Assembly (NCBI GenBank): GCA_965552055.1
Contig: CBEVQO010000005.1
Coordinates: forward strand, 79,597 to 143,596
Reading direction: 5' to 3'
Length of the DNA: 64,000 bases
Source of the DNA: an uncultured bacterium
GTDB lineage: Bacteria; Hydrothermota; UBA3073; NMUJ01; CBEVQO01
Shown in pieces: positions 22,781 through 45,924 of this stretch (positions within the stretch are counted from its first letter, which is position 1; every line of letters begins with the position of its first letter). The notes below the pieces were generated by a model. The model was given only the letters and a program-made list of their open reading frames with translations, ran no database searches and was not told the origin of the DNA. Position numbers and translations under genes: made by a program.

Positions 22781-22887
22781 TGCGAGCGTTAGCGAGCTCA
22801 TTTCATATGGGTTTTTTGTCGCACCCGAGCGAAGCGAGGGTTGCGCAAATGGGAAGGTGGGGACTGGGAGGCGGGGCTAAAAATATC
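22781..22887 (-). repeat. GC-rich intergenic repeat, compact inverted copy (R1) of the family also found at 33947 and 45537
   Basis: The reverse complement contains TTAGCCCCGCCTCCCAGTCCCCACC, a CGCAACCCTCGC core, and GCTCGCTAACGCTCGCA. These match the head, core and tail motifs of R2 and R3. Confidence 0.7.
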
Positions 22888-22914
22888 TTGACAAAGTTAT
22901 ATTTTGATTATAAG
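22888..22914 (+). promoter_or_regulatory. Internal promoter-like element TTGACA-N15-TATAAG upstream of the NuoB-like gene
   Basis: Same architecture as the other promoters in the window. It lies between repeat R1 and the ATG at 22922. Confidence 0.45.
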
Positions 22915-22921
22915 AAGAGCC

Positions 22922-23338
22922 ATGGGTATTAAGATTGGTGCTTTAAAGAGGTCTATATGGCTTTTTCATTTTAATTCGGGTTCATGCAATAACTGTGATA
23001 TTGAGATTGTTGACTGTTTAACTCCTCGGTATGACATTGAGAGATTTGGCTTGAAACTTGTAGGTAGCATTCGTCATGCTGATGTTCTTGTAGTAACGGG
23101 TTTTGTCAGCCGTCAGAGTGCTATTCGTTTAAAGAGGTTGTGGGAGATGATGCCAGAGCCTAAGTTTGTTGTAGCAGTTGGTACCTGTGCGTGTTCTGGT
23201 GGTATTTTTGCAGAATCCTATCATATGGCGGGTCCTGTTGATAAGATAATACCTGTTCATGCTTATATACCAGGTTGTCCGCCCAAGCCGGAAGCTATAA
23301 TTTCTGGTATTGTGAAATTGTTGAACACTTTAAAATGA
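22922..23338 (+). CDS. NuoB/MbhJ-like [NiFe]-hydrogenase small subunit (group 4)
   Basis: CNNCDIEI, GTCACSGG and IPGCPP cysteine motifs for the proximal 4Fe-4S cluster. Start set at the ATG (MGIKIG) downstream of the promoter element. The ORF-track start at 22904 lies inside the promoter. Confidence 0.85.
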   Translation: MGIKIGALKRSIWLFHFNSGSCNNCDIEIVDCLTPRYDIERFGLKLVGSIRHADVLVVTGFVSRQSAIRLKRLWEMMPEPKFVVAVGTCACSGGIFAESYHMAGPVDKIIPVHAYIPGCPPKPEAIISGIVKLLNTLK

Positions 23339-23712
23339 GTGAAATCAAAGTTATGGAGGATTTACTGAAAGAGGCAAAGAAATATATTGAAGAGGGTAAT
23401 GTTGTTCAGGCGAGCGAGAAGATTTATAAGGTGATAGAGGAAGGCATTAAGTTTTTATCGAGCAGGGATGGAGTTCCTGAATATTCTGTTGCGCAGAAGG
23501 AAGGCAGGTGGTGGACGCATTTACTTGGTAAGGCAGCTGTTCGACTTTCTAAAAAATATAATGAACAGATGATAAATGATTGCTGGGCAAATGCCTATGA
23601 CCTTCATGTATGGGGTTATCACGAAAGGAAATATGATATGGATACGGTTAAACCTAAATTGAGATATGCAGAGTGGATGCTTGAATTTGTAAAGAAGGTG
23701 TCAAATGAGTGA
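23335..23712 (+). CDS. Small helical protein, family X copy A (tentatively PaREP1/HEPN-like)
   Basis: ~125 aa. EAKKYIEEGNVVQASEKIYKVIEEGIKFL...LHVWGYHER motifs. The start overlaps the NuoB-like stop as ATGA. The longer ORF-track start at 23275 is rejected. Confidence 0.55.
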   Translation: MSEIKVMEDLLKEAKKYIEEGNVVQASEKIYKVIEEGIKFLSSRDGVPEYSVAQKEGRWWTHLLGKAAVRLSKKYNEQMINDCWANAYDLHVWGYHERKYDMDTVKPKLRYAEWMLEFVKKVSNE

Positions 23713-24085
23713 GGAGATAAAAGTTATGGAAGAGTTGCTGAAGGAGGCAAAGAAATATATTGAAGAGGGTAATGTTGTTCAGGCGAGCGAGAAGATTTAT
23801 AAGGTGATAGAGGAAGGCATTAAGTTTTTATCGAGCAGGGATGGAGTTCCTGAATATTCTGTTGCGCAGAAGGAAGGCAGGTGGTGGACGCATTTACTTG
23901 GTAAGGCAGCTGTTCGACTTTCTAAAAAATATAATGAACAGATGATAAATGATTGCTGGGCAAATGCCTATGACCTTCATGTATGGGGTTATCACGAAAG
24001 GAAATATGATATGGATACGGTTAAACCTAAATTGAGATATGCAGAGTGGATGCTTGAATTTGTAAAGAAGGTGTCAAATGAGTGA
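23705..24085 (+). CDS. Small helical protein, family X copy B (identical to copy A at nucleotide level except the first ~25 nt)
   Basis: Tandem duplicate with an 8-nt ATGAGTGA start/stop overlap. Confidence 0.55.
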   Translation: MSEEIKVMEELLKEAKKYIEEGNVVQASEKIYKVIEEGIKFLSSRDGVPEYSVAQKEGRWWTHLLGKAAVRLSKKYNEQMINDCWANAYDLHVWGYHERKYDMDTVKPKLRYAEWMLEFVKKVSNE

Positions 24086-24458
24086 GGAGATAAAAGTTAT
24101 GGAAGAGTTGCTGAAGGAGGCAAAGAAATATATTGAAGAGGGTAATGTTGTTCAGGCGAGTGAGAAGATTTATAAGGTGATAGAAGAAGGCATTAAGTTT
24201 TTATCGAGCAAGGATGGGATACCAGAGTATTCTGTTGCGCAGAGAGAAGGCAGATGGTGGATGCATTTGCTTAGTAAGGCATCTCGTCGTCTTTCTAAAA
24301 AATATAATGAAGATGAAATTTATCATGTGTGGAGTGTTGCGTATGATTTGCATGTATGGGGCTATCATGAAAGGAAACTTGATATAGAAGATGTTAAGCC
24401 AAATATTAAATATGCGGAGTGGATGCTTGAATTTGTGAAGAAGGTGTCAAATGAGTAA
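24078..24458 (+). CDS. Small helical protein, family X copy C (~80% identical to A and B)
   Basis: Third tandem copy, with the same 8-nt overlap into the NuoC-like gene. Confidence 0.55.
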   Translation: MSEEIKVMEELLKEAKKYIEEGNVVQASEKIYKVIEEGIKFLSSKDGIPEYSVAQREGRWWMHLLSKASRRLSKKYNEDEIYHVWSVAYDLHVWGYHERKLDIEDVKPNIKYAEWMLEFVKKVSNE

Positions 24459-24879
24459 GATTGATAAAATAAAAGAAAAGTTTGAGAAAGAGATAAAAAA
24501 GATAAAAAAAGTTGGTGAATTTGAATATTTTATTGATATTGACAGAAGAGATTTGCTTAAAGTGGTTGATTATATTTTTAACGATTTAAAAGGCAGATAC
24601 AATATTTTGTCTGCAACGGATCTGGAAGAGGGTTTTGAGATCCTTTATCATTTTAGTTTTGATGAAGAAGGTAAAAGGGTTACTTTGAGGGTGATGCTGT
24701 CTCATGAAAATCCAGAAGTTGAATCGATAAGTAGTATTGTAAAAGGTGCGCAATGGATAGAGAGGGAGATTATGGATTTACTTCCTATTAAATTTTTGAA
24801 TCATCCTGATCCTCGCAGATTTATCTTATCCGATGATTGGGAAGAGGGGGTATATCCTTTGAGAAGGGAGAAGAGATGA
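24451..24879 (+). CDS. NuoC/MbhK-like hydrogenase subunit
   Basis: EILYHFSF...RVTLRVML and the AQWIEREIMDLLPIKFLNHPDPRRFIL NuoC signature. Confidence 0.8.
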   Translation: MSKIDKIKEKFEKEIKKIKKVGEFEYFIDIDRRDLLKVVDYIFNDLKGRYNILSATDLEEGFEILYHFSFDEEGKRVTLRVMLSHENPEVESISSIVKGAQWIEREIMDLLPIKFLNHPDPRRFILSDDWEEGVYPLRREKR

Positions 24880-26087
24880 AAAGGGTGATACCGATAGGCC
24901 CTTATCATCCATTACAGGAAGAAGCGGAGTTTTTCCAATTATATGTTGAAGGTGAAACGGTAGTTGATGTTGACTGGAAAACAGGTTTTAATCACAGGGG
25001 GATAGAGAAAATTTCACAATCGCTTTCTTATGATCAAGTTGCTTTTCTTGTGGAGAGAGTTTGTGGGATATGTTCCACTTCTCATCCGATTGCCTATTGT
25101 AATGCTGTTGAAGAGATATGTGGTATTGAGATACCTGAGAGAGCAAAGTATATAAGGAGCATAATAGGCGAATTGGAGCGTATACATTCGCATTTATTGT
25201 GGCTGGGGCTCGCAGGTCATTTTATTGGATATGACACACTGTGGATGTGGGCATGGAAATACAGAGAGCCTGTTCTCGACATCATGGAGATGATAACGGG
25301 AAATAGGCAAAATTATGCAATGATGAAGCCAGGGGGCGTTAGGAGAGATATCGATGAAGATAAGATACCTGATATTAAAAAAGTTTTAAATAGTTTGAAA
25401 CCTGTTCTTGAAAAGTTTGCCAAAATTGCAATGGATGATCCTGTTTTGCATGCTCGCACAAAGGGTGTTGGTATATTGACAAAGGAAGAGGCACATAATT
25501 TTGGGGCAGTGGGTCCTACTGCGAGGGCATCTGGCTTAAAAATAGATGTGAGGTGTGATTTTCCTTATGCTGCTTATCCTCTTGTTGAATGGGAAGTTAT
25601 AACAACGGAAAATGGAGATGTTTTTGATAAAATTGTTGTAAGAGTGCTTGAGATGATAGAATCTGTTAAAATAATTGAGCAATGTCTTGATAGGTTGAAA
25701 GAAGCGAAAGGAGAGATTGATGCAAAGATAAAGGAAGTTCCACCTGGTGAAGGTATAGGGACTCATGAAGCTCCAAGGGGTGAGGTTTTTCATTATGTAA
25801 AGTCAGATGGCAGTAATAGACCTGTGAGGCACAAAATAAGGGCACCGAGTTATTGTAATGTTCCGACATTTAAAGTTACATGCGTTGGATATCAGGTTGC
25901 TGATGCGGTTATTGCGCTTGCAGCGGTTGACCCTTGTTACAGCTGTACTGAAAGGATGGAAGCGATAGTTGATGGCAAAAGGATTTTAAAGTGGAGAGAT
26001 TTGATAAGGATGAGCAGGCAGAAGACAGAAAAGATAAAGGCAGAGGTTGGCAGGGATTTTCTTTTGAAAGAAAAACCCGAATTGTGA
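24876..26087 (+). CDS. Group-4 [NiFe]-hydrogenase large subunit (NuoD/HycE/MbhL-like) with intact Ni-Fe ligands
   Basis: N-terminal ERVCGICSTSH (RxCGxC) and C-terminal DPCYSCTER (DPCxxC). After the cleavage-site Arg there is a ~43-aa C-terminal extension. Start at the ATG with a GGGAGAAGAG ribosome-binding site and ATGA overlap with the NuoC-like stop. Confidence 0.9.
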   Translation: MKRVIPIGPYHPLQEEAEFFQLYVEGETVVDVDWKTGFNHRGIEKISQSLSYDQVAFLVERVCGICSTSHPIAYCNAVEEICGIEIPERAKYIRSIIGELERIHSHLLWLGLAGHFIGYDTLWMWAWKYREPVLDIMEMITGNRQNYAMMKPGGVRRDIDEDKIPDIKKVLNSLKPVLEKFAKIAMDDPVLHARTKGVGILTKEEAHNFGAVGPTARASGLKIDVRCDFPYAAYPLVEWEVITTENGDVFDKIVVRVLEMIESVKIIEQCLDRLKEAKGEIDAKIKEVPPGEGIGTHEAPRGEVFHYVKSDGSNRPVRHKIRAPSYCNVPTFKVTCVGYQVADAVIALAAVDPCYSCTERMEAIVDGKRILKWRDLIRMSRQKTEKIKAEVGRDFLLKEKPEL

Positions 26088-26491
26088 TGGATGTAATAAA
26101 AGAAATGGAAGTAAGTTTATATTGTGACGGAAAAAGTAGTAAAAAGATGAGATTATATTTTGATAGTGGCTCACCTTATACTTTTATAAAAAAGTCGAGT
26201 GCAGAAGCGATAGGAGGTATTTTTAAATTACCATCTGAAGAAAGATTCGTTGGACTTGGAGGCGGCGGATTTATAAGTGCGGAAGCACAGCATCTTCATA
26301 TAAAGGTTTCAAATGTATGGTGCGCGCATTTTGTTTATGTGATTGATGATGCTATTTTCAAAGATGAGTATGATATGCTTGTTGGTCATGATTTTATGCA
26401 AAAATATGGTATAAAGGTGGTGCCTCATACAGGTGATATTGAGATAGATGAGGTTAGATTGAAATTATCGCAAACTGTGAGGATGGTATGA
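26087..26491 (+). CDS. Retropepsin-like small aspartic protease, paralog 2 (D-S-G-S variant)
   Basis: YFDSGSPYTFI aligns with the DTGA and DTGS motifs of paralogs 1 and 3. The ATG overlaps the large-subunit TGA by 1 nt (TGATG). Confidence 0.5.
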   Translation: MDVIKEMEVSLYCDGKSSKKMRLYFDSGSPYTFIKKSSAEAIGGIFKLPSEERFVGLGGGGFISAEAQHLHIKVSNVWCAHFVYVIDDAIFKDEYDMLVGHDFMQKYGIKVVPHTGDIEIDEVRLKLSQTVRMV

Positions 26492-28281
26492 CGGATATTC
26501 TTTATCTATTATTAATACCTGCTGGTGCCGGTGTTTTGAGTTTGTTGTTGCCTCGTCGTGCTAAAATTGGTGCAGAAATAATTGGCTTACTTGGTAGTGC
26601 GGGAGCGCTCTTTTATTGTGTGCTTATCTATTTGCGTTATAACTCATTTACCAATGCATGGTGGAGAATCGATGGATTATCCCGTTTTATACTTTTATTC
26701 TGTGGTATTTTTGGATTTATAATAACTCTTTATTCACTTCCTTATATGAGGAAATTTAAAAAGTTAAATGAGTATTATGGCTATCTGTTATTTACAATTG
26801 CAGGTTCATTTGGTGTGGTTCTTGCCAACAATTTGATTTTATTCCTTGCCTTGTGGGGCTTTTTGGGTTTGACTCTTTATCTTCTGGTAAACATAAGTGA
26901 TGAAGGCTCGCCTGCAGCGAAGAAGACGATGATAATTGTAGGAGGTGCAGATTGTTTGATGATATTCGGGATAGTTGTATTAATTTTGATGACTTTTTCT
27001 TTCAGGATGGACCAGATGAATGTAAATGTTTCGGTTTCTCCTTTAGCGGCTCTTGCCTTTGTTGTTCTTGCACTTGCTGCCTTTGCCAAAGCAGGTGTTA
27101 TGCCCATGCATACATGGATGCCTGATTATACGCAATGTGCACCAACATCCGTAGCTGCTTATCTGCCTGCGTCACTTAATAAATTGTTGGGAATATATCT
27201 GCTTATGAGATTGGTTAAAGATATTTTTAAGTTGAATAATGCTATGCAAATATTTTTGCTTGCTATTGGAGCATTCACTATTATAGCTGGTGTAATGATG
27301 GCGTTAATCCAGCATGATGTTAAAAGAGTGCTTTCTTATGATGCAATATCACAGGTTGGATATATGGTGCTGGGGATAGGGACATTGAATTCCATAGGTT
27401 TTAGCGGAGGTTTATTCCATATGTTAAATAGTGCGATATTTACAGGATGTTTATTTCTTACTGCAGGGAGTGTTGAACACAGGTCAGGCACAACCGACCT
27501 TGATAAACTTGGAGGATTGTCTCGCTATATGCCTGTTACTTTTATTGCATTTATAATATCAGCGCTGGCGATATCAGGAGTGCCGCCACTTAATGGCTTT
27601 TTCAGTAAATGGATGATTTATCAGGGGATAATTAAGCTTGGTGAAAAGAGTAAACTTTGGATTTTGTGGATTGCGTGTGCGATGTTTGGTAGTGCGTTGA
27701 CCCTTGCAAGTTTTATGAAGCTTTTGCATGCAATTTTCCTCGGACAAAAAGCCGATTATAAGAAAGAAATAAAAGAGGTGAATTTTGCAATGTTGCTACC
27801 GCAAATGTTCCTTGCTGCTTTATGCTTTGTATTTGGTATATGGGCATTTAATGTTCCACTGAGTAAATTGATTTATCCTGCTGTTGGAAGTGTGCCTCAT
27901 TTTGTAGGCTGGTGGGAGCCCTGTCTTGCTACGATTTTGATAATCGTGGGAATATTAATAGGTGCTATAATTTATGTTGCTGGAAAAGTGAAGGTCAGGG
28001 AAGAGGAGCATCCATTTATCGGTGGAGAGATTTTACCAGAAGAAGCAAGGATTACGGGTGTAGATTTTTATAAGACAGTAGAAGAGATGTGCGTTATAAG
28101 GACTTTTTACGGCTTGGCAAAGAAAAAATTGTTCGATATTTATGAATTGTGCAAAAGAATGTTTCTCTATCTTGGAAGTAAGATTTCGAAGTTGCATACT
28201 GGTGTTTTGACATCTTATATTGGCTGGATATTCTTTGGTTTTATCATAATTTTATTCGTGGTTTGGATGCTTAAATGGTAG
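26488..28281 (+). CDS. MrpA/NuoL-like antiporter-type membrane subunit (proton-conducting membrane transporter family)
   Basis: 597 aa with ~16 TM helices. The WMPDYTQCAPTSVAAYLPASLNKLLGIYLLMRL core is typical of the NuoL/MrpA/MrpD family. Confidence 0.8.
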   Translation: MTDILYLLLIPAGAGVLSLLLPRRAKIGAEIIGLLGSAGALFYCVLIYLRYNSFTNAWWRIDGLSRFILLFCGIFGFIITLYSLPYMRKFKKLNEYYGYLLFTIAGSFGVVLANNLILFLALWGFLGLTLYLLVNISDEGSPAAKKTMIIVGGADCLMIFGIVVLILMTFSFRMDQMNVNVSVSPLAALAFVVLALAAFAKAGVMPMHTWMPDYTQCAPTSVAAYLPASLNKLLGIYLLMRLVKDIFKLNNAMQIFLLAIGAFTIIAGVMMALIQHDVKRVLSYDAISQVGYMVLGIGTLNSIGFSGGLFHMLNSAIFTGCLFLTAGSVEHRSGTTDLDKLGGLSRYMPVTFIAFIISALAISGVPPLNGFFSKWMIYQGIIKLGEKSKLWILWIACAMFGSALTLASFMKLLHAIFLGQKADYKKEIKEVNFAMLLPQMFLAALCFVFGIWAFNVPLSKLIYPAVGSVPHFVGWWEPCLATILIIVGILIGAIIYVAGKVKVREEEHPFIGGEILPEEARITGVDFYKTVEEMCVIRTFYGLAKKKLFDIYELCKRMFLYLGSKISKLHTGVLTSYIGWIFFGFIIILFVVWMLKW

Positions 28282-28823
28282 ACCTTTATATCATAATTGG
28301 GATTATGATTTTAAGTGCCATAATTGCTCTTGAAGTACGGGACCTTATTTCTTCGATTATATGTGCTGGTGTGTGTGGTTTTGCACTTGTTTTTGTGTTT
28401 CTGCGTTTACATGCACCTGACCTTGCGGTCGTTCAAATGATTGTGGAAACTCTATCTTTAATAATTTTAATAGCAGCAATTTTGAGGACTACAAGAGAAG
28501 ATGTTCAGGAAGGGATTTCATTTAACAAAGTAATTTTGTATCTTGGAGGACTATTTTTTGTGATAATATTTATGATATTTGCATATAATGTTATAAATGA
28601 TATGGCGAAGTTTGGAGAGCCATATTTGAGAATGTCTTATCCTTATATTGAGCAAGGTGTTAGAAGTTTATTCAATGGTGGTCCAAAAGTTGCGAATATT
28701 GTGGGAGCTGTTCTGCTTGATTTCAGGGGATATGATGCACTTGGATGTGCTACAGTGCTGTTTGCCTCTGCGATAGGTGTTCTTGTAGTTTTGAGGAAAA
28801 TAGGTAGAAAAAAGGATGTTTAA
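28275..28823 (+). CDS. MbhD/MrpA-C-terminal-like (DUF4040-type) small membrane subunit
   Basis: 182 aa with 4-5 TM helices, located in the Mrp module. Confidence 0.55.
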   Translation: MVDLYIIIGIMILSAIIALEVRDLISSIICAGVCGFALVFVFLRLHAPDLAVVQMIVETLSLIILIAAILRTTREDVQEGISFNKVILYLGGLFFVIIFMIFAYNVINDMAKFGEPYLRMSYPYIEQGVRSLFNGGPKVANIVGAVLLDFRGYDALGCATVLFASAIGVLVVLRKIGRKKDV

Positions 28824-29217
28824 ATTTGATAAATATTTAAAGGAAGCAAAGAGATATATTGAAAAAGGGGATGCGGTGCAGGCAAGCGAGAAACTTTATA
28901 AGTGTGGTAAAGAAGCGATAAAATTGCTAGCTGAAACTTTTGATATTGAAGAAAATAAAGAAGCAAAAGAGATGGGAAGATGGTATACGCCTTTACTTGG
29001 AAATGCTGCGATTAGATTGAGTAAAATTGTGGATAGCAGGATATTTGCTTTTTGGAAGACAGTTTATTATTTGCATTGTGAAGGGTTTCATGAGCGTCAT
29101 CTTGATGTTGAAAATGTAAGAGAAAATCTTAAAGATATTGAAGAATTGGTTGAAATAGCGAAGAAATATAAAAATGAAAGAGGGATAAATGAAGGAAGGG
29201 ATGAGTTTGATAGTTAA
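28816..29217 (+). CDS. Small helical protein, family X copy D (~35% identical to A-C)
   Basis: AKRYIEKGDAVQASEKLYKCGKEAIKLL...LHCEGFHERHLD. The same 8-nt overlap style (ATGTTTAA) with the upstream gene. Confidence 0.5.
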   Translation: MFKFDKYLKEAKRYIEKGDAVQASEKLYKCGKEAIKLLAETFDIEENKEAKEMGRWYTPLLGNAAIRLSKIVDSRIFAFWKTVYYLHCEGFHERHLDVENVRENLKDIEELVEIAKKYKNERGINEGRDEFDS

Positions 29218-32295: not shown

Positions 32296-32303
32296 GAGCA
32301 GTT

Positions 32304-33509: not shown

Positions 33510-33946
33510 AAATAGTAGTTTGTGGTGTAGGTAACAGATTGAGGGGCGATGACGCAATAGGTTTACTTATAATAGAAGAACTCAAAAAAGAAAATTTGAA
33601 CGCAATACTTATAAATGCAGGAAGTGCACCTGAAAATTATCTTCAAAAAATAATAAATCATAATCCGGATATTTTGCTAATCATAGATGCTGTGGACTTC
33701 AAAGGCATACCTGGTCAGACAAAAATTGTTAATGTAGAAGAATTGGAAGATAAGTTTTTTTCAACACATTCCCTTTCTTTAAAATTTCTGACACAATACT
33801 TAAAACAATTTTTACCTGATTTGAAAATTTTGCTGATAGGCATTCAGCCAAAAGATACAAATTTAAGAGAAGGAATAACAAAAGAATTAAAAGAAAAATT
33901 ACCACAAATTAAAAAAGAAATTATCAAAATGCTAAAAAATTATTAG
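33506..33946 (+). CDS. Hydrogenase maturation endopeptidase (HycI/HybD family)
   Basis: KIVVCGVGNRLRGDDAIGLLI is the GxGNxxxxDDGxG nickel-dependent C-terminal processing protease signature. Confidence 0.85.
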   Translation: MKIVVCGVGNRLRGDDAIGLLIIEELKKENLNAILINAGSAPENYLQKIINHNPDILLIIDAVDFKGIPGQTKIVNVEELEDKFFSTHSLSLKFLTQYLKQFLPDLKILLIGIQPKDTNLREGITKELKEKLPQIKKEIIKMLKNY

Positions 33947-34246
33947 CCCCACCTCCCAGTCCCCGCCTTCCCATGTGCACACCCCTCGCAAGGCACAGCC
34001 TTGACAACACCATAGCTCTATAAACGCCCTTCCCGTAAAACCCGACCCATACGCCCCAAAATCACAAAGTACCTTGCTCGGGGTGTGACAAAATACCCAT
34101 TGGTGATAGGCTCGCTTACGCTCGCATTAAAAATTTTTTGATATGCACCCTCGCTAACAAAATGTGATTCATCTTCCACTGCTCGGGTGTGACAAATATT
34201 CTTATGTGAAACACGCTCCGCCCGTAATAAAAACCCAAATCCCCAC
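33947..34246 (+). repeat. GC-rich intergenic repeat R2 (head-core-tail motifs with internal sub-repeats)
   Basis: Starts TTAGCCCCACCTCCCAGTCCCCGCC...TGCACACCCCTCGC. It contains two copies of GCTCGGGGTGTGAC and of CCCGTAA(A/T)AA, plus the tail CTCGCTTACGCTCGCATTAAAAATTTT shared with R3. GC content is far above the flanking DNA. Confidence 0.7.
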
Positions 34247-34273
34247 TTGACAAAATTAGATTTTTATTATAAT
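34247..34273 (+). promoter_or_regulatory. Promoter-like TTGACA-N15-TATAAT followed by an AGGAGG ribosome-binding site
   Basis: TTGACA at 34247-34252 and TATAAT at 34268-34273. Upstream of the 34325 gene. Confidence 0.5.
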
Positions 34274-35823: not shown

Positions 35824-35829
35824 TTAAAT

Positions 35830-36063
35830 TTATTCAAAGACTGCTTTTACTTCCTTTACTTCTGGGATTTCGTCTTTTATTCTCTTTTCGATAAAGCCTT
35901 TAAGTGTCATCTGAGCAAATGGGCATCCAGCGCATCTGCCTTTGAGACGCACAGTAACCACGCCTTCATCCGTTATTTCAACCAGTTCTACATCGCCTCC
36001 ATCTATCGCAAGATATGGCTTTATTTTATCAACAACATTCTGTACCCTTTCTCTATCAATCAT
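35830..36063 (-). CDS. NifU-like (Nfu-type) Fe-S cluster assembly domain protein
   Basis: LAIDGGDVELVEI...GRCAGCPFAQMTLKGFIEKRI matches the NifU C-terminal domain CxxC signature. Start at the ATG with an AGGAGG ribosome-binding site. Confidence 0.8.
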   Translation of the reverse strand: MIDRERVQNVVDKIKPYLAIDGGDVELVEITDEGVVTVRLKGRCAGCPFAQMTLKGFIEKRIKDEIPEVKEVKAVFE

Positions 36064-36490
36064 CTTTCCTCCTGTTAAAAAGTTTAGAAAAAGTGTCAAT
36101 TATTCTTTTTGCATGTTTAAAGCCTTCTTTTATCATCTCAACTCCAACTCCTCCCCTGTAATATCCCAAGATATGCAAATTTTCATGAACAACTCTTAAA
36201 GATGCCTGCAATTTGCCATTGTGGGGTGCTTTCTTAAGCCATTCCCAGTATTCATCATAAGAAGTAGGTAGCTTATCTTCCGGACAGCCTTTTGATAGGG
36301 CAAATGCATCGATTGCAAGTAATGCAGAGAGATAACCTATAGCACATGCCTCTTTTACAGGTTTCTCATCCGTATAAATCCCATATTTTATTTCAACATT
36401 TTTCAAAATCTCTTTTGCATTGTTGAAATAGCGATGCGACATCTCAATCGCCTCTTCAGCACTCGTTGGACGCTTAAATGCCTTCATCAT
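36056..36490 (-). CDS. Small helical protein, family X copy E (divergent subfamily; shares the LHxxGY(H/Y) core with A-D)
   Basis: 144 aa. KEACAIGYLSALLAIDAFAL...NLHILGYYRGG. Overlaps the NifU-like start by 8 nt. Confidence 0.5.
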   Translation of the reverse strand: MMKAFKRPTSAEEAIEMSHRYFNNAKEILKNVEIKYGIYTDEKPVKEACAIGYLSALLAIDAFALSKGCPEDKLPTSYDEYWEWLKKAPHNGKLQASLRVVHENLHILGYYRGGVGVEMIKEGFKHAKRIIDTFSKLFNRRKDD

Positions 36491-36936
36491 GGATTATAAT
36501 CTTCACGCTTCTTTTTTCTATCAAAAAGTTTGGAAAAAGTGTCGATTATTCTTTTTGCATGTTTAAAACCTTCTTTTATCATTTCAACTCCAACTCCTCC
36601 CCTGTAGTATCCAAAAATATGCAGATTTTCGTAAACAACTCTTAGAGATGCCTGCAATTTACCATTGTGGGGTGCTTTCTTAAGCCATTTCCAGTATTCA
36701 TCATAAGAAGTGGGTAGTTTGTCTTCCGGACAGCCTTTTGATAGGGCAAATGCGTCAATTGCGAGTAATGCAGAGAGATAACCTATAGCACATGCTTCTT
36801 TTACAGGTTTCTCATCCGTATAAATCCCATATTTTATTTCAACATTTTTCAAAATCTCTTTTGCATTGTTAAAATAGCGATGCGACATTTCAATCGCTTC
36901 TTTGGCGCTCGTTGGACGCTTAAATGCTTTCATCAC
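36487..36936 (-). CDS. Small helical protein, family X copy F (~96% identical to E)
   Basis: Tandem duplicate of E. Its stop overlaps the E start as ATGA. Confidence 0.5.
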   Translation of the reverse strand: MMKAFKRPTSAKEAIEMSHRYFNNAKEILKNVEIKYGIYTDEKPVKEACAIGYLSALLAIDAFALSKGCPEDKLPTSYDEYWKWLKKAPHNGKLQASLRVVYENLHIFGYYRGGVGVEMIKEGFKHAKRIIDTFSKLFDRKKKREDYNP

Positions 36937-36976
36937 GAATTATAATCAAAAAATGAATCTGTCAAGTTTTCAAAAA

Positions 36977-37555: not shown

Positions 37556-37592
37556 TTTTACATTTTTGTAAGAGAAGTAAAAAAGTAATAAT

Positions 37593-41629: not shown

Positions 41630-41730
41630 TCTCTCCTTTTTACTAATTTAATCAAAATACAGCATTGTCAACTATTTTTATTGACAAACTGAAATTATCA
41701 GTAAAAATTAATAGTAAAAAGGAGGGAGAT

Positions 41731-42975
41731 ATGGCAAGAATATCTCCTGCTGAAATGGCTAAAAAGCAATTAGAAAAAGCAGCAAAGATTATGAAACTTG
41801 ACCCAAATTTGCTCGAAATATTAAAACATCCTAAGCGAGTAGTAGAAGTATCAATCCCTGTGAGAATGGATGATGGCTCAATAAAAGTATTCACAGGTTA
41901 TAGATGTCAGTATAACGATTTCAGGGGACCCTTTAAAGGGGGTATTCGCTTTCATCCCGATGTAACAAAAGAAGAAGTTATAGCACTTGCTGCTTGGATG
42001 ACTTGGAAGTGTGCAGTTATAGATATTCCTTTTGGAGGAGGAAAGGGAGGAATAAAATGTGACCCCACGAAACTCTCTTTAAGGGAATTGGAAAGGTTAA
42101 CGAGGCGCTTCACTTATACTTTGATGCCGTTACTCGGACCTTCAATTGATATACCTGCTCCAGATGTATTTACCGATGAAAAGACCATGGCTTGGATAAT
42201 GGATACTTTTAGTGTATTTCAGGGACAAACAGAACCTGGTGTTGTAACAGGTAAATCACGCACAATAGGGGGCTCAGTAGGAAGGAGGGAAGCCACGGGT
42301 AGAGGTGTTGCTATCTGCACAAGGGAGATAATGAAATTATATGGAGATGATATAAAAGGAAAAACCGTAGCAGTGCAGGGATTCGGAAATGTCGGCTCTT
42401 ATGCATCAAAATATTTATCCGAAATGGGAGCAAAAATAATAGCTGTAACGGATATCACAGGTGGAGTTTATGACGAGAATGGATTGAATATTCCAGAATT
42501 GATGGAATATGTAAAAGAAAAGAAAGGTGTTAGAGGATTTACAAAAAAATCAATAACAAATGAAGAACTATTCAAACTTGATGCCGATATAATAGTCCCT
42601 GCTGCACTAGAATGTGTTATAACAGAAGAAAATATGAAAGATATAAAAGCAAAATACATTTCCGAAGGAGCAAATGGTCCCACAACACCTGAAGCAGATG
42701 AATACCTTTACAAAAATGGCAAAATAATAATTCCAGATATTCTGGCAAATTCAGGGGGTGTGCTTGTCAGTTATTTTGAATGGGTGCAGGATAGAATGAG
42801 CTTTTACTGGTCTGAAGAAGAAGTTTTCGCAAGAATGGAAGATAAAATAAAAAAAGCAGTAAAAGAAGTTTATGAAACAGCAAAAGAATACAATACAGAT
42901 TTAAGAACAGGTGCATATATACTTGCAATAAAAAGAGTAGCAGATGCTTATTATGAAAGAGGTCTATTCCCATAA
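41731..42975 (+). CDS. gdhA: Glutamate dehydrogenase
   Basis: KGGIRFHP substrate-binding motif and the GFGNVG Rossmann motif. Start at the ATG after the AAAGGAGGG ribosome-binding site (the ORF-track start at 41665 is too far upstream). Confidence 0.9.
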   Translation: MARISPAEMAKKQLEKAAKIMKLDPNLLEILKHPKRVVEVSIPVRMDDGSIKVFTGYRCQYNDFRGPFKGGIRFHPDVTKEEVIALAAWMTWKCAVIDIPFGGGKGGIKCDPTKLSLRELERLTRRFTYTLMPLLGPSIDIPAPDVFTDEKTMAWIMDTFSVFQGQTEPGVVTGKSRTIGGSVGRREATGRGVAICTREIMKLYGDDIKGKTVAVQGFGNVGSYASKYLSEMGAKIIAVTDITGGVYDENGLNIPELMEYVKEKKGVRGFTKKSITNEELFKLDADIIVPAALECVITEENMKDIKAKYISEGANGPTTPEADEYLYKNGKIIIPDILANSGGVLVSYFEWVQDRMSFYWSEEEVFARMEDKIKKAVKEVYETAKEYNTDLRTGAYILAIKRVADAYYERGLFP

Positions 42976-44341
42976 ACTTTCGGAACTGAGGTTAGTTGCA
43001 AGGGAATTAATGAAAAATTTGAAGAAAAAAGTTTATTACGGGGATTTGCGTCTTGAATACAGGAAAGTATTATCTTTTAAAGTATCGGAAAAGGGAGTTG
43101 ATTCTCTTACACTCGAAGAAAGGGTATCCGGAGGCGTAAGGGTGTGGAAAGGTGCTTTTTCTTTTGCTTCTTTTGATTCACTGGAGAAAATAGCAGAGTC
43201 AATAGAATCGGCGATAAGTTTATCAAAATTATATTGTGAAGATAAAAAATTAACAATTGCTGAAAAAGTCGAAGGAGAATTCTATTATCCGGTGGAGAAA
43301 AATCCAGCAGAAGTTTCAGATGGCGAGAAAAAAGAATTGTTTAAAAAATGGGTAAACATAGCACTCGAAGAGATGAATGTAAAATCTGCCATTATAAATT
43401 ATATCGAAATACATTCTGTAAGAGTTTTCGCAAATACCGAAGGCTCTTTGATTTCACAAATATCACCTTACATAATTGCTTACGGTAGTATAACCGCAGA
43501 AAAAGAGAATATAAAAGAGACTATTTATTGCTATTCATGTAAAAGGGATTTCAATAAATTCAAAGATGAAATGGAAAAAGAAATCAGAGATAAATCTGGC
43601 TATGTAAATAAACTCGTACTTTATCCAAGGGTTAGAACAGGCATTTATGATATTGTCATCGACCCTGATATTTCCGGCACATTCGCGCATGAAGCATTCG
43701 GACACCTTGCGGAAGCAGATTTCCATTATCAAAATAAGGAAATGCAAAAAGTTTTTAAGAAAGGAAGGAAAATTGGTAATGAAATGATAAGCATAGTTGA
43801 TGATGGCTCCGATATTGCTTATTTCGGTGGATACTACTTCGATGACGAAGGCGTAAAGCCAGAGAAAACTTATCTTATGAAAAATGGAGAAATAACAGGT
43901 AGATTACATACCATCGAGACAGCAACCATAATGGGTGAAAAACCAACGGGAAATGGAAGGATAACGGACGCTCGCTTCCCACCTGTAGCCAGAATGTCCA
44001 TAACCTATATTGAACCTGGCAAAGATAAAAAAGAAGATTTGATAGCGAGTATAAAAAATGGATTCTACTGCGAAGGAGCAGCAGGAGGATGGACAGAATT
44101 CACAACTTTTACTTTCACTCCATTAAAAGTTTATAAAGTTGAGGATGGAAAAATAAAATATCCTGTAAGAGGTGTATCTTTGCAGGGTGATATTTTTGAG
44201 ACATTGAAGAATGTAAGGGGTGTTAGCAGTGAGCTGCGATTTGTAGATGGCTGGTGCGGTAAAGATGAGCAATATCCCTTACCCATTAGCTGGGGTGGAC
44301 CTTATCTTTTGATAGAAAAGGTGAGAATAAGTGGCGATTGA
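42953..44341 (+). CDS. tldD: TldD-family metallopeptidase
   Basis: HEAFGHLAE (HExxxH) motif and a Gly-rich GGGxxxG C-terminal region. Start uncertain (42944 or 42953). Confidence 0.8.
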   Translation: MKEVYSHKLSELRLVARELMKNLKKKVYYGDLRLEYRKVLSFKVSEKGVDSLTLEERVSGGVRVWKGAFSFASFDSLEKIAESIESAISLSKLYCEDKKLTIAEKVEGEFYYPVEKNPAEVSDGEKKELFKKWVNIALEEMNVKSAIINYIEIHSVRVFANTEGSLISQISPYIIAYGSITAEKENIKETIYCYSCKRDFNKFKDEMEKEIRDKSGYVNKLVLYPRVRTGIYDIVIDPDISGTFAHEAFGHLAEADFHYQNKEMQKVFKKGRKIGNEMISIVDDGSDIAYFGGYYFDDEGVKPEKTYLMKNGEITGRLHTIETATIMGEKPTGNGRITDARFPPVARMSITYIEPGKDKKEDLIASIKNGFYCEGAAGGWTEFTTFTFTPLKVYKVEDGKIKYPVRGVSLQGDIFETLKNVRGVSSELRFVDGWCGKDEQYPLPISWGGPYLLIEKVRISGD

Positions 44342-45536
44342 TATAGAAATAAAAAGAGAAGAAGTAAAATCAATAAGATTGTCTTTTTCTGATAAAAAAT
44401 TGATAAATTGCGAGAGAAGAATTGCGAAAGTGATAACTGTTAGATTAAGTGATGAGAAAAAAAGTGTGATAGTAAGCGGAAGTTTGCCAGAGCAGGAGCT
44501 GATATTGAGGGCAAGAAATCTTTTGAAATACGGAGAAGAAAGAGATTTTGAACTATCACCTGCTCAAACGATTTCAGAAAAAATGCAATTTAAAGAACCA
44601 GACATTAAAAGAATTTGCGAAAAAATAAGAGAAATTATGCCAGAAAATCTATCATCCGAATTATTCTTTGAAATAGGAGATGTAAGCGTAAATCATGAAA
44701 ATACAAAAGGTTTTTCAGGTGAATACTCAAAAAGATACTATTCTATATCTTTCTCGATTCCAGTGGAACACGAAGGAGAAATAATTTTTCTGAATTACTC
44801 GGATATTTCTACTGCCGATAATTCCAGAGAAATCATAAAAGAATTGTTGAAAGAATATGAAAGTTTTCCAAAGAAAAGAGAAAAAGAACCTGCTAATTTG
44901 CCTGTTGTTTTGCATCCGGATGCTGTTTCAGACTTAATCAAAATGTGCACTTATTTTGCAAGGGGTGAGTATATACACAAATGTGTGAGTCCTTTTTGTG
45001 ATAAATTAGGAGAAAAGATATTTTCCGGGGAATTGACAATTGAGCATATACCTGATGATAAAAATTTCGCAGGATGGCGTCCTTTTGACGATGAGTGTAC
45101 ACCAACAAAGAGATTTAAGTTTATAGAAAAAGGTGTATTGAGGAATTTATTTTTATCGCGAAAGAGTGCAAAAAAGTTATCCCTTGAACCAAATGGGTGC
45201 GCTATATTCGGAGAATCACCGTTTTTCAGAATTGAAGAGACAGCACTTGCTCTGGATGTTTATCCAGGTAAAAATTTATTAACTTCATTAAAAGATTTTA
45301 TTTTGATAAGAGATGCATCTTTTGATATTTATCCAACAGGTGAATTCGTGGCAGATTGCATACTTGCATATCTTTACAGGAAAGGCAAAAAAGAAAAATA
45401 TTTGAGAAGCTTCCAGATAGCTGGAAACATTTTCGATATACTTGGTAAAAATTTAATCTTTTTGAGCAAGAAAAGAATAAGAATAGGAAATATAATAGCT
45501 CCCTATATTGGTTTTTCAGGTGTAAAAATTATATAA
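44331..45536 (+). CDS. PmbA/TldE-like partner of TldD (no HExxH)
   Basis: Same-family fold but lacking the metal-binding motif. Adjacent to and overlapping tldD, as in characterised TldD/TldE pairs. Confidence 0.6.
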   Translation: MAIDIEIKREEVKSIRLSFSDKKLINCERRIAKVITVRLSDEKKSVIVSGSLPEQELILRARNLLKYGEERDFELSPAQTISEKMQFKEPDIKRICEKIREIMPENLSSELFFEIGDVSVNHENTKGFSGEYSKRYYSISFSIPVEHEGEIIFLNYSDISTADNSREIIKELLKEYESFPKKREKEPANLPVVLHPDAVSDLIKMCTYFARGEYIHKCVSPFCDKLGEKIFSGELTIEHIPDDKNFAGWRPFDDECTPTKRFKFIEKGVLRNLFLSRKSAKKLSLEPNGCAIFGESPFFRIEETALALDVYPGKNLLTSLKDFILIRDASFDIYPTGEFVADCILAYLYRKGKKEKYLRSFQIAGNIFDILGKNLIFLSKKRIRIGNIIAPYIGFSGVKII

Positions 45537-45924
45537 ATTTTTAGCCCCGCCTCCCTATCCCCACCGCCCTCGTGCACACCCCTCGCTACCAAAAGGCATT
45601 GTCTTGACCACTCACGCTCTTTAAAATGCCCTACCCGTAATAAAGCAAGTTCGCAACCGAAACCTCAATCACATCAAAAACTGCACTACTGCACTCTATA
45701 ACCTCTCCCCATAATGAGTGTAGTATCGCACCTAAATCGGCTCCCGCTTTCATTACCACTACCCTTAAAAATCTCCATTTCTGCTCCCAAAATGCAGTTC
45801 AGCTCTCACCGCTCGGGGTGTTGACTCACAACCCATATGTAATGTGCTCGCTTACGCTCGCATTAAAAATTTTACAGGTTAACCTGATACTGATGTGGCT
45901 TCTTACCTCCTGTGAAATAATTTG
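45537..45924 (+). repeat. GC-rich intergenic repeat R3
   Basis: TTAGCCCCGCCTCCCTATCCCCACCGCCCTCGTGCACACCCCTCGC..., CCCGTAATAAAG, GCTCGGGGTGTTGAC, and CTCGCTTACGCTCGCATTAAAAATTTT shared with R2. Confidence 0.7.

What the first reader, a model, noticed from the sequence alone, without database searches (positions are those of the whole stretch)
22781..45924. Family of GC-rich intergenic repeats (three copies, one inverted) each abutting a conserved promoter
Three elements share these motifs: TTAGCCCC(A/G)CCTCCC..TCCCC(A/G)CC, TGCACACCCCTCGC, CCCGTAA(A/T)AA, GCTCGGGGTGT(T)GAC, and the 27-nt CTCGCTTACGCTCGCATTAAAAATTTT. The copies are 22781-22887 (a compact, reverse-complemented version inside the hydrogenase operon), 33947-34246 (at the hydrogenase operon end) and 45537-45924 (after the TldD/PmbA pair).

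They are conspicuously GC-rich against ~35% GC flanks. The TGCACACCCC and GGGGTGTGAC segments are mutually complementary, which gives a long-range stem. Each repeat is immediately followed by a TTGACA-N15-TATAAT element driving the next gene. No ORF is encoded.

Candidate roles are REP/MITE-like mobile repeats, transcription terminator or insulator elements at operon ends, or a structured cis-regulatory RNA or small RNA.
Basis: seen in the sequence. Interest (0 to 1): 0.6.

Follow-up and report, generated by a model that had tools for sequence, protein, structure and literature searches.

The report
Lineage-specific modular intergenic repeat family
The three GC-rich spacers are real copies of a short, non-coding, multi-copy repeat found only in one uncultured (probably WOR-3) bacterial lineage; it most likely spread like a small mobile element, so it is an ordinary kind of thing with some unusual DNA-structure features.

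Summary
Three copies sit at 22781-22884 (inverted), 33943-34246 and 45537-45875. At least five more loci occur in metagenome contigs of the same organism, and several assemblies break exactly inside the repeat.

The element is modular:
- a C-rich head, whose opposite strand is a canonical G-quadruplex motif;
- an optional stem module with inverted termini, present as a series of internal deletions;
- a tail hairpin, GCTCGC-TNAC-GCTCGC, which on the G strand reads as a GCGNNAGC mini-hairpin flanked by tandem G·A mismatches.

Copies lie in either orientation, always between genes. Copy A sits in a nuoH-nuoB junction that has no gap in the nearest relative and an unrelated 62-nt spacer in the next. 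The family was absent from every relative's locus I could fetch, from plasmid and phage records, and, as head and tail-context patterns, from viral contigs.

There is no Rfam match, no significant fold for the minimal form, no terminator geometry and no ORF. The adjacent "conserved promoter" is simply this genome's general TTGACA-N15-TATAAT consensus, not part of the repeat.

Best reading: a REP/ERIC/MITE-like non-autonomous repeat. The mobilising enzyme was not found and the end structure is unresolved. Copy A is more conserved than synonymous sites, so a secondary host function or gene conversion remains possible.

Interest is modest.

The parts
22781..22884 (-). Copy A, compact head-stem-tail form. 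The G-rich strand is on the window + strand. It lies between the nuoH-like stop codon (22778-22780) and the promoter-like site of the nuoB-like gene.
   Evidence: An identical copy is in L108, and orthologous copies are in L115 and L275.
22782..22797 (+). Copy A tail hairpin, read on the G strand: GCGAGC-GTTA-GCGAGC. The apex GCGTTAGC is a GCGNNAGC mini-hairpin flanked by tandem G·A mismatches.
   Evidence: The mini-hairpin definition comes from PMC13037366.
22818..22847 (+). Copy A stem module reduced to its two termini. The apex GCGAAGC is a GCGNAGC mini-hairpin flanked by GA/AG.
22851..22876 (+). Copy A head read as a G-quadruplex motif: GGGAAGGTGGGGACTGGGAGGCGGGG.
22888..22914 (+). Promoter-like TTGACA-N15-TATAAG next to the head of copy A. 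This is host sequence, not part of the repeat.
   Evidence: It is 84% identical between strains, with both hexamers kept.
33943..33974 (+). Copy B head. The stop codon TAG of the HycI-like gene (33944-33946) lies inside the head's TTAG.
33975..34089 (+). Copy B stem module, which keeps the 5' internal part of the long form. Termini: GTGCACACCCCTCGC ... GCTCGGGGTGTGAC.
34090..34139 (+). Copy B tail: ACCCATTGG box, hairpin at 34110-34125, and an A/T-rich end.
34144..34246 (+). Second, head-less partial copy in B. It has a short stem module (34144-34193, keeping the 3' internal part) and a degenerate tail.
34247..34273 (+). Host promoter-like TTGACA-N15-TATAAT of the downstream secreted-protein gene.
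45537..45571 (+). Copy C head, starting one base after the PmbA-like stop codon (45534-45536).
   Evidence: The contigs of two related strains end 19 nt into this head.
45572..45825 (+). Copy C stem module, the longest form (254 nt). Termini: GTGCACACCCC ... GGGGTGTTGAC.
   Evidence: z = -2.6.
45826..45875 (+). Copy C tail: CACAACCCATATGTAATG, hairpin at 45846-45861, then ATTAAAAATTTTAC.
45925..45951 (+). Host promoter-like TTGACA-N15-TATAAT, 50 nt beyond the repeat.

Best explanation
These are copies of a lineage-specific, non-coding, non-autonomous intergenic repeat of the REP/ERIC/BOX/MITE kind.

**Anatomy (shown).** The unit has three parts:
- **Head (H).** C-rich, about 30 nt: (A)TTTTTAGCCCCRCCTCCC-NN-TCCCCRCC-CCC.
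- **Stem module (S), optional.** Its termini are inverted repeats (GTGCACACCCCTCGC ... GCTCGGGGTGTGAC).
- **Tail (T).** ACCCATATG-AAT, then the hairpin GCTCGC-TNAC-GCTCGC, then an A/T-rich end.

**How it most likely works (inferred).** An enzyme encoded elsewhere in the genome moved or copied the unit into the very short A/T-rich spacers that this compact genome leaves between a stop codon, or a divergent promoter, and the next -35 box. The long stem module then decayed by internal deletion while keeping its ends. This produced the forms H-S-T (254-nt, 115-nt and 30-nt stem modules), H-T and S-T'.

**Shown:** multi-copy status, both orientations, strictly intergenic placement, modular deletion variants, absence from the equivalent site and from the fetched loci of sister lineages, no ORF, and no RNA-family match.

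**Inferred:** mobility itself, the enzyme, and the insertion mechanism.

**Possible secondary effect (inferred, weak).** Once inserted, the G strand can form a G-quadruplex and two very stable GA-capped mini-hairpins. It may therefore act as an RNA or DNA structural punctuation mark, as REP elements do. That would fit the better-than-neutral conservation of copy A.
For: **Copy number and spread**
- Three copies lie in the window, with head and tail motifs far above chance.
- A 25-nt head pattern finds 8 stretches in public metagenome contigs, 7 of them from one sample. They give at least five further distinct loci: L109/L113, L110, L111, L112 and L114.
- Contigs L111, L112 and L113 stop inside the repeat. 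So do two independent assemblies of related strains (L116 from ENA, L117 from GCA_964419125.1). This is the usual signature of a dispersed repeat.

**Placement**
- The head side faces divergent gene starts (A, L112, L113, L114) or gene ends (B, C).
- The tail side faces gene starts (B, C, L109, L111) or convergent gene ends (A, L110).
- Elements supply or abut stop codons. B's TAG lies in the head, and the L110 ORF stops at TAA in the hairpin loop.

**Empty site**
- In the syntenic operon of the nearest relatives, nuoH and nuoB overlap (TGATG) in L276-278. In L279 they are separated by an unrelated 62-nt spacer.
- The window has a 152-nt gap there, made of copy A plus a promoter-like site.

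**Deletion series**
- The B stem module keeps the 5' interior, the second B module keeps the 3' interior, and A keeps only the termini of a C-like 254-nt module.
- C differs from the stem-less L112 by GTGCAC...GTTGAC, flanked by TC on each side.

**Lineage restriction**
- nhmmer finds nothing in relatives at 66-81% protein identity.
- There is no match in plasmid or phage records. The head and tail-context patterns have no exact match in IMG/VR.

**Other**
- No ORF and no Rfam hit.
Against: - **No mobilising enzyme was found.** None of the about 60 window ORFs scanned matched a transposase, recombinase or HUH family, and seven gave no Pfam match at all. The rest of the genome could not be read.
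- **The minimal H-T form has no terminal inverted repeats.** A TA or TTA flanks both ends in most copies, but the flanks are so A/T-rich that this is inconclusive. Three copies share TTTTAC beyond it.
- **No same-species presence/absence polymorphism was available.** The empty site comes from relatives with only 66-69% NuoH identity.
- **Copy A is too well conserved for junk DNA.** It is 95.3% identical between strains (5 changes in 107 nt). Third codon positions of the adjacent gene differ at 14.9% (46 of 309) and the adjacent promoter spacer at 16%. This needs selection or gene conversion among copies.
- **The C-tracts of the head are invariant in all nine copies, while the positions between them vary.** This also looks constrained.
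Confidence: 0.6

Rival explanations
1. It is a DNA-structure or promoter-context module kept by selection. The G-quadruplex-forming head, the GA-capped mini-hairpins and the A/T-rich ends sit just upstream of -35 boxes. There they act as an insulator against read-through, or as an UP-element-like or supercoiling-sensitive activator of the adjacent promoter. The genome shows no excess of intrinsic-terminator-like sites in the two stretches scanned (19 kb).
For: - Four of the five canonical G4 motifs in the 64 kb lie in these elements.
- The G-tracts are invariant in all copies while the loop positions vary.
- An outward-facing TTGACA lies 7-12 nt from the head in A, L112, L113 and L114, and 8-20 nt from the tail in L109 and L111.
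- The head ends in CTAAAAAT on the promoter-sense strand.
- Copy A is more conserved than synonymous sites.
- Terminator-like sites are not above shuffles, and stop codons often sit 5-18 nt from the next -35.
Against: - The same promoter consensus works at many genes without any repeat: at least 8 good consensus sites, 3 of them beside a repeat.
- The distance from tail to -35 is 50-110 nt in C and B.
- In B and C the head faces a gene end, not a promoter.
- Promoter adjacency is expected for any insert tolerated in such short intergenic spacers.
- No experiment or expression data is available.
Confidence: 0.15
2. It is a cis-acting RNA element or small RNA family. The C-rich head (CCCCACCUCCC resembles the anti-Shine-Dalgarno sequence) could pair with G-rich ribosome-binding sites. 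Alternatively, the hairpins could protect mRNA 3' ends or intercistronic segments from exonucleases, as REP elements do.
For: - Two compensatory changes keep the pairing. The stem module shows A:T to G:C between B and A. The outer pair of the tail hairpin shows G-C to A-U in L110.
- The long forms fold better than shuffles (z = -1.8 and -2.6).
- B and C lie in 3' UTR position, and A lies in an intercistronic position.
- Conservation is better than neutral.
Against: - No Rfam match, even at E<=10.
- The minimal form has z-scores from -0.4 to +1.9 on either strand.
- The consensus structure is only the small hairpin.
- Orientation relative to flanking genes is inconsistent, and one copy sits between two divergent promoters.
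- No promoter or terminator of its own is evident.
- The loop variants GTAA, GTTA and GTCA fit the DNA GNNA mini-hairpin rule rather than the RNA GNRA rule.
- The anti-SD-like CACCUCC is GCCUCC in most copies.
Confidence: 0.12
3. It is a Rho-dependent terminator (rut-like C-rich, G-poor tract) marking operon ends.
For: In B and C the C-rich, unstructured strand is the sense strand immediately after a stop codon. GC skew reaches -0.5 there. Intrinsic-terminator-like sites are not above chance in the two stretches scanned.
Against: - Copies A and L110 present the G-rich strand to the upstream gene.
- L109/L113 lies between two gene starts.
- Sequence-level repetition, the hairpin and the stem module are not needed for a rut site.
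Confidence: 0.05
4. The similarity between short GC-rich spacers is due to chance.
For: None beyond the small number of copies in the window.
Against: - The tail 18-mer occurs 3 times against 0.01 expected.
- Arms of 47-72 nt match at 79-93%.
- nhmmer E-values run from 1e-8 to 1e-23 for the additional copies.
Confidence: 0.01

Closest known systems
ERIC/IRU and enterobacterial RU small mobile sequences (own knowledge; see also PMC2759123 and PMC3184786, listed)
   Same: - About 70-130-nt non-coding intergenic repeats.
- Found in either orientation, in transcribed spacers.
- Size classes are created by internal deletions or insertions at fixed internal sites.
- No identified transposase.
   Different: - ERIC is one long imperfect palindrome.
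- Here the minimal unit is non-palindromic: a C-rich head plus one small hairpin. The palindromic part is an optional internal module.
- There is no sequence similarity.
REP/BIME/REPIN elements mobilised by RAYT (TnpA-REP) Y1 transposases (own knowledge; PMC2817692 and PMC3733652, listed)
   Same: - A short, G+C-rich, imperfect hairpin with stem mismatches that make the two strands structurally different.
- Extragenic, multi-copy and species-specific.
- Often sits right after stop codons.
- Known effects on mRNA stability.
   Different: - No GTAG or CGTC tag next to the palindrome.
- One hairpin per minimal unit, not inverted pairs.
- A long non-palindromic C-rich head.
- No RAYT gene was seen in the window.
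Correia (NEMIS/CREE) and other bacterial MITEs (own knowledge; review PMC10969869, listed)
   Same: - Size variants from internal deletion.
- Insertion at TA in A/T-rich DNA next to genes.
- Frequent proximity to promoters.
- Hairpin-forming transcripts.
   Different: - Correia has 26-bp terminal inverted repeats and a clear TA duplication.
- Here only the internal stem module has inverted termini. The outer ends have at most a weak A/T-rich inverted repeat, and the TA/TTA flank is ambiguous.
BOX elements of Streptococcus pneumoniae (own knowledge)
   Same: Modular architecture (boxA-boxB(n)-boxC). Modules are present or absent in different copies. The elements are intergenic and non-coding.
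   Different: Unrelated sequence. BOX modules together form one extended stem-loop. Here the head is unstructured.
Mini-hairpin DNA GCGNAGC / GCGNNAGC (Hirao; review PMC13037366)
   Same: - On the G strand the tail apex reads GCGTAAGC, GCGTTAGC or GCGTCAGC, and the stem-module apex of copy A reads GCGAAGC. These are exact matches to the defined motifs.
- GCGTTAGC is the very sequence at the primase-dependent complementary-strand origins of phages St-1 and alpha3.
   Different: Those are single functional sites in ssDNA phage origins or N4 promoters. Here the motif is embedded in a dispersed chromosomal repeat, and a role in ssDNA is untested.
Intrastrand-triplex repeats (TMECO, CCCTCNCCC-N-GGGNGAGGG-N3-GGGNGAGGG; PMC4666352) and G4-forming repeats of Xanthomonas and Nostoc (PMC4692102, listed)
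   Same: - Strictly intergenic and multi-copy, with no strand bias.
- Built from G/C-tract blocks separated by about 3 nt that can adopt non-B DNA.
- No linked transposase is known.
   Different: The head has no complementary pyrimidine and purine blocks on one strand, so a G-quadruplex rather than a triplex is the predicted fold. The sequence is unrelated.

Membership tests
MITE (non-autonomous DNA transposon) | Multi-copy, short, non-coding, at non-homologous loci | tested here: met
   - At least 8 distinct loci.
- No ORF.
- Assemblies break in the repeat.
MITE (non-autonomous DNA transposon) | Terminal inverted repeats | tested here: not met
   - The outer ends GCCCCRCC... and ...GCTCGCAT are not inverted copies of each other.
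- Only an A/T-rich AAATTTTTA/TAAAAATTT pair exists, in C, with a weaker version in B.
- The internal stem module does have inverted termini of 11-14 nt.
MITE (non-autonomous DNA transposon) | Target-site duplication | tested here: inconclusive
   - TA (or TTA) flanks both ends in A, B, C, L110 and L111, but not in L109.
- The flanks are A/T-rich, and C, L109 and L111 share TTTTAC beyond the putative end.
MITE (non-autonomous DNA transposon) | Presence/absence at a given site among relatives | tested here: met
   The nuoH-nuoB junction is empty in L276-278 (overlapping TGATG) and holds an unrelated 62-nt spacer in L279. These relatives are distant (66-69% NuoH identity). No same-species polymorphism was available.
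MITE (non-autonomous DNA transposon) | Autonomous partner with matching ends | not testable with these tools
   None of the window ORFs scanned matched a transposase family, and seven gave no Pfam match. The rest of the genome could not be fetched.
REP / RAYT system | A 20-40-nt imperfect palindrome carrying a terminal GTAG or CGTC tag | tested here: not met
   The tail hairpin is an imperfect palindrome, but no GTAG or CGTC tag is conserved beside it.
REP / RAYT system | RAYT (Y1 HUH) gene flanked by REPs in the genome | not testable with these tools
   None was seen in the 64-kb window. The remainder of the genome is unavailable.
Curated structured RNA family (Rfam) | Match to a covariance model | tested here: not met
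   - 0 hits at gathering score in the window.
- No hit overlapping the elements at E<=10.
Structured RNA (generic) | Conserved fold supported by covariation and by stability above background | tested here: inconclusive
   - Two compensatory pairs are seen.
- The minimal element has z = -0.4 to +1.9.
- The long forms have z = -1.8 and -2.6.
Intrinsic terminator | G+C-rich hairpin immediately followed by a U-run on the transcribed strand | tested here: not met
   No such site was called at any copy, and the regions show no excess over shuffles. In copy A the T-run precedes the stem on the G strand.
Mini-hairpin DNA (GCGNAGC / GCGNNAGC) | Exact sequence motif | tested here: met
   - GCGTTAGC lies at 22786-22793 and GCGAAGC at 22829-22835.
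- GCGTAAGC occurs on the - strand of B and C.
- The definition is taken from PMC13037366.
- Actual folding and function were not tested.
G-quadruplex motif | G3+ N1-7 G3+ N1-7 G3+ N1-7 G3+ | tested here: met
   The motif is present in all three heads and in all additional copies. Four of the five such motifs in the window lie in the elements. Folding was not tested.

The most novel reading that the evidence does not exclude
The element is a strand-asymmetric non-B-DNA cassette: a G-quadruplex plus two GCGN(N)AGC mini-hairpins, each flanked by tandem sheared G·A pairs. It would be read as single-stranded DNA, either as the recognition signal of an HUH- or primase-like enzyme that copies it, or as a structural switch placed just upstream of promoters.

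Its 16-nt cap, GCGAGC-GTAA-GCGAGC, would then be one instance of a widespread, so far undescribed hairpin-cap module. Two observations bear on this:
- The 16-mer is 6-11 times more frequent in viral contigs than four matched controls.
- The corresponding 18-mer recurs in unrelated repeat families of bacteria and archaea.
Probability: 0.12. Interest if true: 0.6.

Novelty: new member of a known kind. Interest (0 to 1): 0.3.

Why it matters
**For annotation.** The finding explains why assemblies of this uncultured lineage fragment at these points. It also shows that the GC-rich spacers should be masked as repeats, not called as sRNA genes or terminators.

**For biology.** This is a small, clean example of a repeat family invading the minimal spacers of a compact, AT-rich genome, including a normally gap-free hydrogenase operon. 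It combines three sequence motifs with well-characterised unusual structures: a G-quadruplex, the GCGNNAGC mini-hairpin and tandem G·A. If the better-than-neutral conservation reflects function rather than gene conversion, the family would be a tractable system for asking what such structures do next to bacterial promoters.

**Side observation.** The GA-capped 16-mer is specifically enriched across phages and unrelated repeat families. A systematic survey would be worthwhile.

Tried and rejected
**1. Is the tail hairpin evidence of a cross-phylum homologous element?**
- The 18-mer hit at least 107 stretches in 185,579 species genomes.
- My estimate of the chance expectation for that 18-mer in 596 Gb is about 35-55.
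- The hits resolve into roughly 40 independent contexts: unrelated repeat families in Methanothrix, Streptococcus loxodontisalivarius, Alphaproteobacteria, Elusimicrobia and others.
- None shares the head or the rest of the tail, so I rejected homology.
- I kept only the narrower point that the 16-mer is enriched: 104 stretches against 12, 9, 14 and 18 for the controls in IMG/VR.

**2. Rfam searches.** Searches of the window and of 18 foreign loci found only tRNAs and a TPP riboswitch elsewhere.

**3. Literature search for the 16-mer.** No paper holds it.

**4. Fetching the source genome by exact protein.** This failed three times, so no genome-wide census was possible.

**5. Similarity searches.**
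- blastn of copy C against plasmids and phages gave no match.
- Head and tail-context patterns in IMG/VR gave no match.

**6. Is the promoter part of the repeat?** Rejected.
- The hexamers are shared, but the spacers are not.
- The promoter lies on different sides of the element in different copies.
- The same consensus occurs at many repeat-free genes.

**7. IS200/IS605-like ends.** Rejected, because there is no hairpin at the head end.

**8. Helitron/IS91-like ends (5'-TC ... hairpin ... CTRR-3').** They do not fit.

**9. Intrastrand triplex.** Rejected for the head, because there is no complementary block on the same strand.

**10. Orientation of the 16-mer relative to genes in foreign loci.** There is only a weak excess of the G-strand form in the mRNA sense. 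The crude ORF calling makes this unreliable.

Full report
**1. What is in the sequence**

Reading the three regions and aligning them shows a modular unit. I describe it on its C-rich strand.

- **Head (H).** (A)TTTTTAGCCCCRCCTCCC-NN-TCCCCRCC-(N2-4)-CCC.
- **Stem module (S), optional.** Its ends, GTGCACACCCCTCGC ... GCTCGGGGTGTGAC, are inverted repeats.
- **Tail (T).** (A/C)ACCCAT(AT/TG)G-AAT-NN, then the hairpin GCTCGC-TNAC-GCTCGC, then AT plus an A/T-rich run.

The three copies are:
- **Copy A (22781-22884)** is inverted and has S reduced to its two ends, about 30 nt.
- **Copy B (33943-34139)** has a 115-nt S. It is followed by a second, head-less S plus a degenerate T (34144-34246).
- **Copy C (45537-45875)** has a 254-nt S.

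The head 15-mer and the tail 18-mer each occur exactly three times. The tail is expected 0.01 times by chance. An nhmmer profile finds no further copy in the window. GC content is 48-53% against 35.7% for the window, with strong C>G skew. Only tiny, unshared ORFs overlap the copies.

**2. More copies, and assemblies that break on them**

A 25-nt head pattern found 8 stretches in public metagenome contigs. Seven come from one sample (Ga0190367) and one from Ga0180302.

- L108 is identical to copy A.
- L115, and later L275, are copy A in a related strain.
- L109/L113, L110, L111 and L112 are new loci carrying a minimal H-T form of about 75 nt with no stem module.
- L114 is a degenerate copy.

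Contigs L111, L112 and L113 end inside the element. The PmbA-like protein next to copy C has strain variants in two other assemblies (ENA ERZ27248328 and NCBI GCA_964419125.1). Both of those contigs stop 19 nt into the head of copy C. Assembly breaks like these are what a dispersed repeat produces. The family therefore has at least eight loci.

**3. Where copies sit**

All copies are intergenic, and their orientation is not tied to the neighbouring genes.

- The head faces a divergent gene start in A, L112, L113 and L114. It faces a gene end in B and C.
- The tail faces a gene start in B, C, L109 and L111. It faces a convergent gene end in A and L110.
- L109/L113 lies between two divergent gene starts, where no transcript ends.
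- Stop codons touch or lie inside the element. The HycI-like TAG is inside the TTAG of B's head. The L110 ORF runs 20 nt into the tail and stops at the TAA of the hairpin loop. The nuoH-like TAA abuts A.

**4. The promoter is host sequence**

A TTGACA box is close to one end of most copies: 7-12 nt from the head in four copies, and 8-20 nt from the tail in two. Beyond the hexamers the spacers share nothing. The box lies on different sides of the element in different copies.

A scan of every TTGACA in the window shows that TTGACA-N15-TATAAT is this organism's general promoter consensus. Examples lie at 19133, 36965(-), 50355, 11825 and 9167(-), among others. Stop codons are often only 5-18 nt from the next -35 box (also D10). 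Any insert tolerated in such spacers will end up next to a promoter.

Neither promoter-like nor terminator-like sites exceed shuffles around the elements, and no hairpin-plus-T-run is called at any copy.

**5. An empty site**

NuoH-like homologues at 66-69% identity lie in a fully syntenic Mbh/complex-I-like operon.

- In L276-278 the nuoH stop codon and the nuoB start codon overlap (GTGTGATGAGT).
- In L279 there is an unrelated 62-nt spacer.
- In the window the gap is 152 nt: copy A plus a 48-nt promoter-like and RBS segment.

The secreted-protein gene downstream of copy B has relatives at 73-81% identity, one of them labelled candidate division WOR-3. Neither their loci nor the NuoH relatives' loci give an nhmmer hit to the element.

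Copy C has no match in plasmid or phage records. Head and tail-context patterns are absent from IMG/VR. The family is young and confined to this lineage.

**6. Internal variation looks like decay of a longer element**

- The S module of B keeps the 5' interior of C's S (AAGGCA..GYCTTGAC..GCTCT.TAAA..GCCCT.CCCGTAA).
- The second S of B keeps the 3' interior (CAAAATG..TTCA.CT..CAC.GCTCGGG).
- A keeps only the termini.
- C differs from the stem-less L112 by GTGCAC...GTTGAC flanked by TC on both sides. L110 and L111 read TCGTC and TCCTC at that point.

S is either a nested element with inverted termini or a palindromic arm that is prone to deletion. It is never found away from a tail, so I cannot tell which.

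The outer ends are unresolved. TA or TTA flanks both ends in five of six complete copies. However, the flanks are A/T-rich, and three copies share TTTTAC beyond that point.

**7. Structure**

- The minimal form folds no better than shuffles on either strand (z = -0.4 to +1.9).
- The long forms reach z = -1.8 and -2.6 through the S stem.
- RNAalifold on five copies returns only the small tail hairpin.
- Two compensatory changes support real pairing. In S there is an A:T to G:C change between B and A. In the tail hairpin the outer pair changes from G-C to A-T in L110.
- No Rfam family matches, at gathering score or at E<=10.

Read on the G strand, the features become recognisable.

- The head is a canonical G-quadruplex motif. 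Four of the five such motifs in the 64 kb are in these elements. Its G-tracts are invariant in all copies, while the positions between them vary.
- The tail hairpin is GCGAGC-GTNA-GCGAGC, and the S apex of A is CCGAGC-GAA-GCGAGG.
- Their cores (GCGTAAGC, GCGTTAGC, GCGTCAGC and GCGAAGC) are exact instances of the GCGNNAGC and GCGNAGC "mini-hairpin DNA" motifs. The review (PMC13037366) reports these motifs at the primase-dependent origins of phages G4, St-1 and alpha3, and figures the N4 early promoter among mini-hairpin contexts.
- The flanking CGAG/GAGC is the classic context for tandem sheared G·A pairs (own knowledge).
- The loop rule seen here, G-T-N-A, fits the DNA GNNA family better than the RNA GNRA family.

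**8. Conservation**

Between the window and the strain represented by L115, copy A differs at 5 of 107 positions (95.3% identity). Third codon positions of the adjacent nuoH-like gene differ at 46 of 309 (14.9%). The adjacent promoter segment differs at 6 of 38.

About 16 changes would be expected at the third-position rate, so A is constrained. Either selection or gene conversion among copies could cause this. Two of the five changes swap the A/G variants that also distinguish other copies, which hints at gene conversion. I could not separate the two causes.

**9. The 16-mer elsewhere**

The tail 18-mer hit at least 107 stretches across very diverse genomes.

By my estimate, about 35-55 hits are expected by chance in 596 Gb. 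The hits fall into roughly 40 independent contexts, several of which are multi-copy repeat families of other organisms. None shares the head or the rest of the tail, so this is not homology.

The 16-mer GCTCGCTTACGCTCGC is nevertheless specifically enriched. It occurs in 104 stretches in IMG/VR. Controls gave 12 (mismatch order swapped), 9 (A·C mismatch), 14 (perfect palindrome) and 18 (loop changed). It usually caps a longer stem of arbitrary sequence.

In Bacteroidales arrays the flanking pairs covary while the TC/CT (GA/AG) mismatch stays fixed. In some genomes the 16-mer forms the linker of triplex-type repeats (compare PMC4666352). I record this as a side observation.

**10. Verdict**

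The best-supported reading is a lineage-specific, non-autonomous intergenic repeat of the REP/ERIC/BOX/MITE kind (confidence 0.6).

It fails the strict MITE definition at its outer ends, which have no terminal inverted repeats. It also fails the REP definition, having no GTAG or CGTC tag. I therefore file it as a new member of the general kind, not of either named family.

None of the window ORFs scanned matched a transposase or recombinase family, and the rest of the genome was out of reach.

The terminator, Rho-site and structured-sRNA readings are not supported as general explanations. A promoter-context or DNA-structure role remains possible (0.15), because of the conservation and the invariant G-tracts.

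Interest is modest (0.3). Specialists expect such repeats in almost any genome. The unusual points are the combination of G4 and mini-hairpin motifs and the invasion of a normally gap-free operon.

Noticed in passing
window 21011-21424, 23275-24458, 28816-29217: The Mbh/complex-I-like hydrogenase operon carries several small genes that are absent from the syntenic operon of the nearest relatives (L281/L282):
- a retropepsin-like aspartic protease gene;
- three tandem PaREP1-family genes (373-nt period, 84-98% identical);
- a fourth PaREP1 gene further on.

Together with repeat copy A, this operon has been invaded at four points.
   Followed up: partly
IMG/VR loci L118-L221; genome loci L001-L107: The 16-mer GCTCGCTTACGCTCGC reads on the G strand as GCGAGC-GTAA-GCGAGC, a mini-hairpin with tandem G·A. 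It is 6-11 times more frequent in viral contigs than four matched controls, and it usually caps a longer stem. The corresponding 18-mer recurs in unrelated repeat families of Methanothrix, Streptococcus loxodontisalivarius, Elusimicrobia, Alphaproteobacteria, Bacteroidales and others.
   Followed up: partly
window 19133, 22888, 34247, 36965(-), 45925, 50355 and others: The promoter consensus of this organism is TTGACA-N15-TATAAT, two bases shorter than the usual 17-nt spacer. The -35 box often starts only 5-18 nt after the previous stop codon. There is no excess of intrinsic-terminator-like sites.
   Followed up: partly
window 36056-36936 (-): A tandem pair of DUF5618 genes, 93% identical over 300 nt.
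   Followed up: no
L279 4928-4989: The Omnitrophica-labelled relative has a different C-rich hairpin (CCTCCCCCC-TTGA-GGGGGAGG) in its nuoH-nuoB spacer, at the same position as copy A.
   Followed up: no
L039, L097, L104: In other phyla the same 16-18-mer hairpin forms the linker inside CCCTCACCC ... CCCTCTCCC-loop-GGGAGAGG repeats. These resemble the published intrastrand-triplex (TMECO-type) motifs (PMC4666352).
   Followed up: no
window 46359-46997: Tandem repeats with a 78/81-nt period lie inside the beta-helix / T9SS-sorted protein gene downstream of copy C. They are coding repeats, unrelated to the intergenic family.
   Followed up: no
window 42-3077, 45969-47966, 57566-60724; P0137: Three large secreted proteins carry the T9SS Por_Secre_tail domain. 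A 75%-identical homologue of the gene downstream of copy B is labelled candidate division WOR-3. This suggests where the organism belongs.
   Followed up: partly
L285 4976-5532 / L286 1-595: Two relatives share a conserved non-coding region of about 550 nt upstream of the homologue of the gene downstream of copy B. I did not examine it.
   Followed up: no
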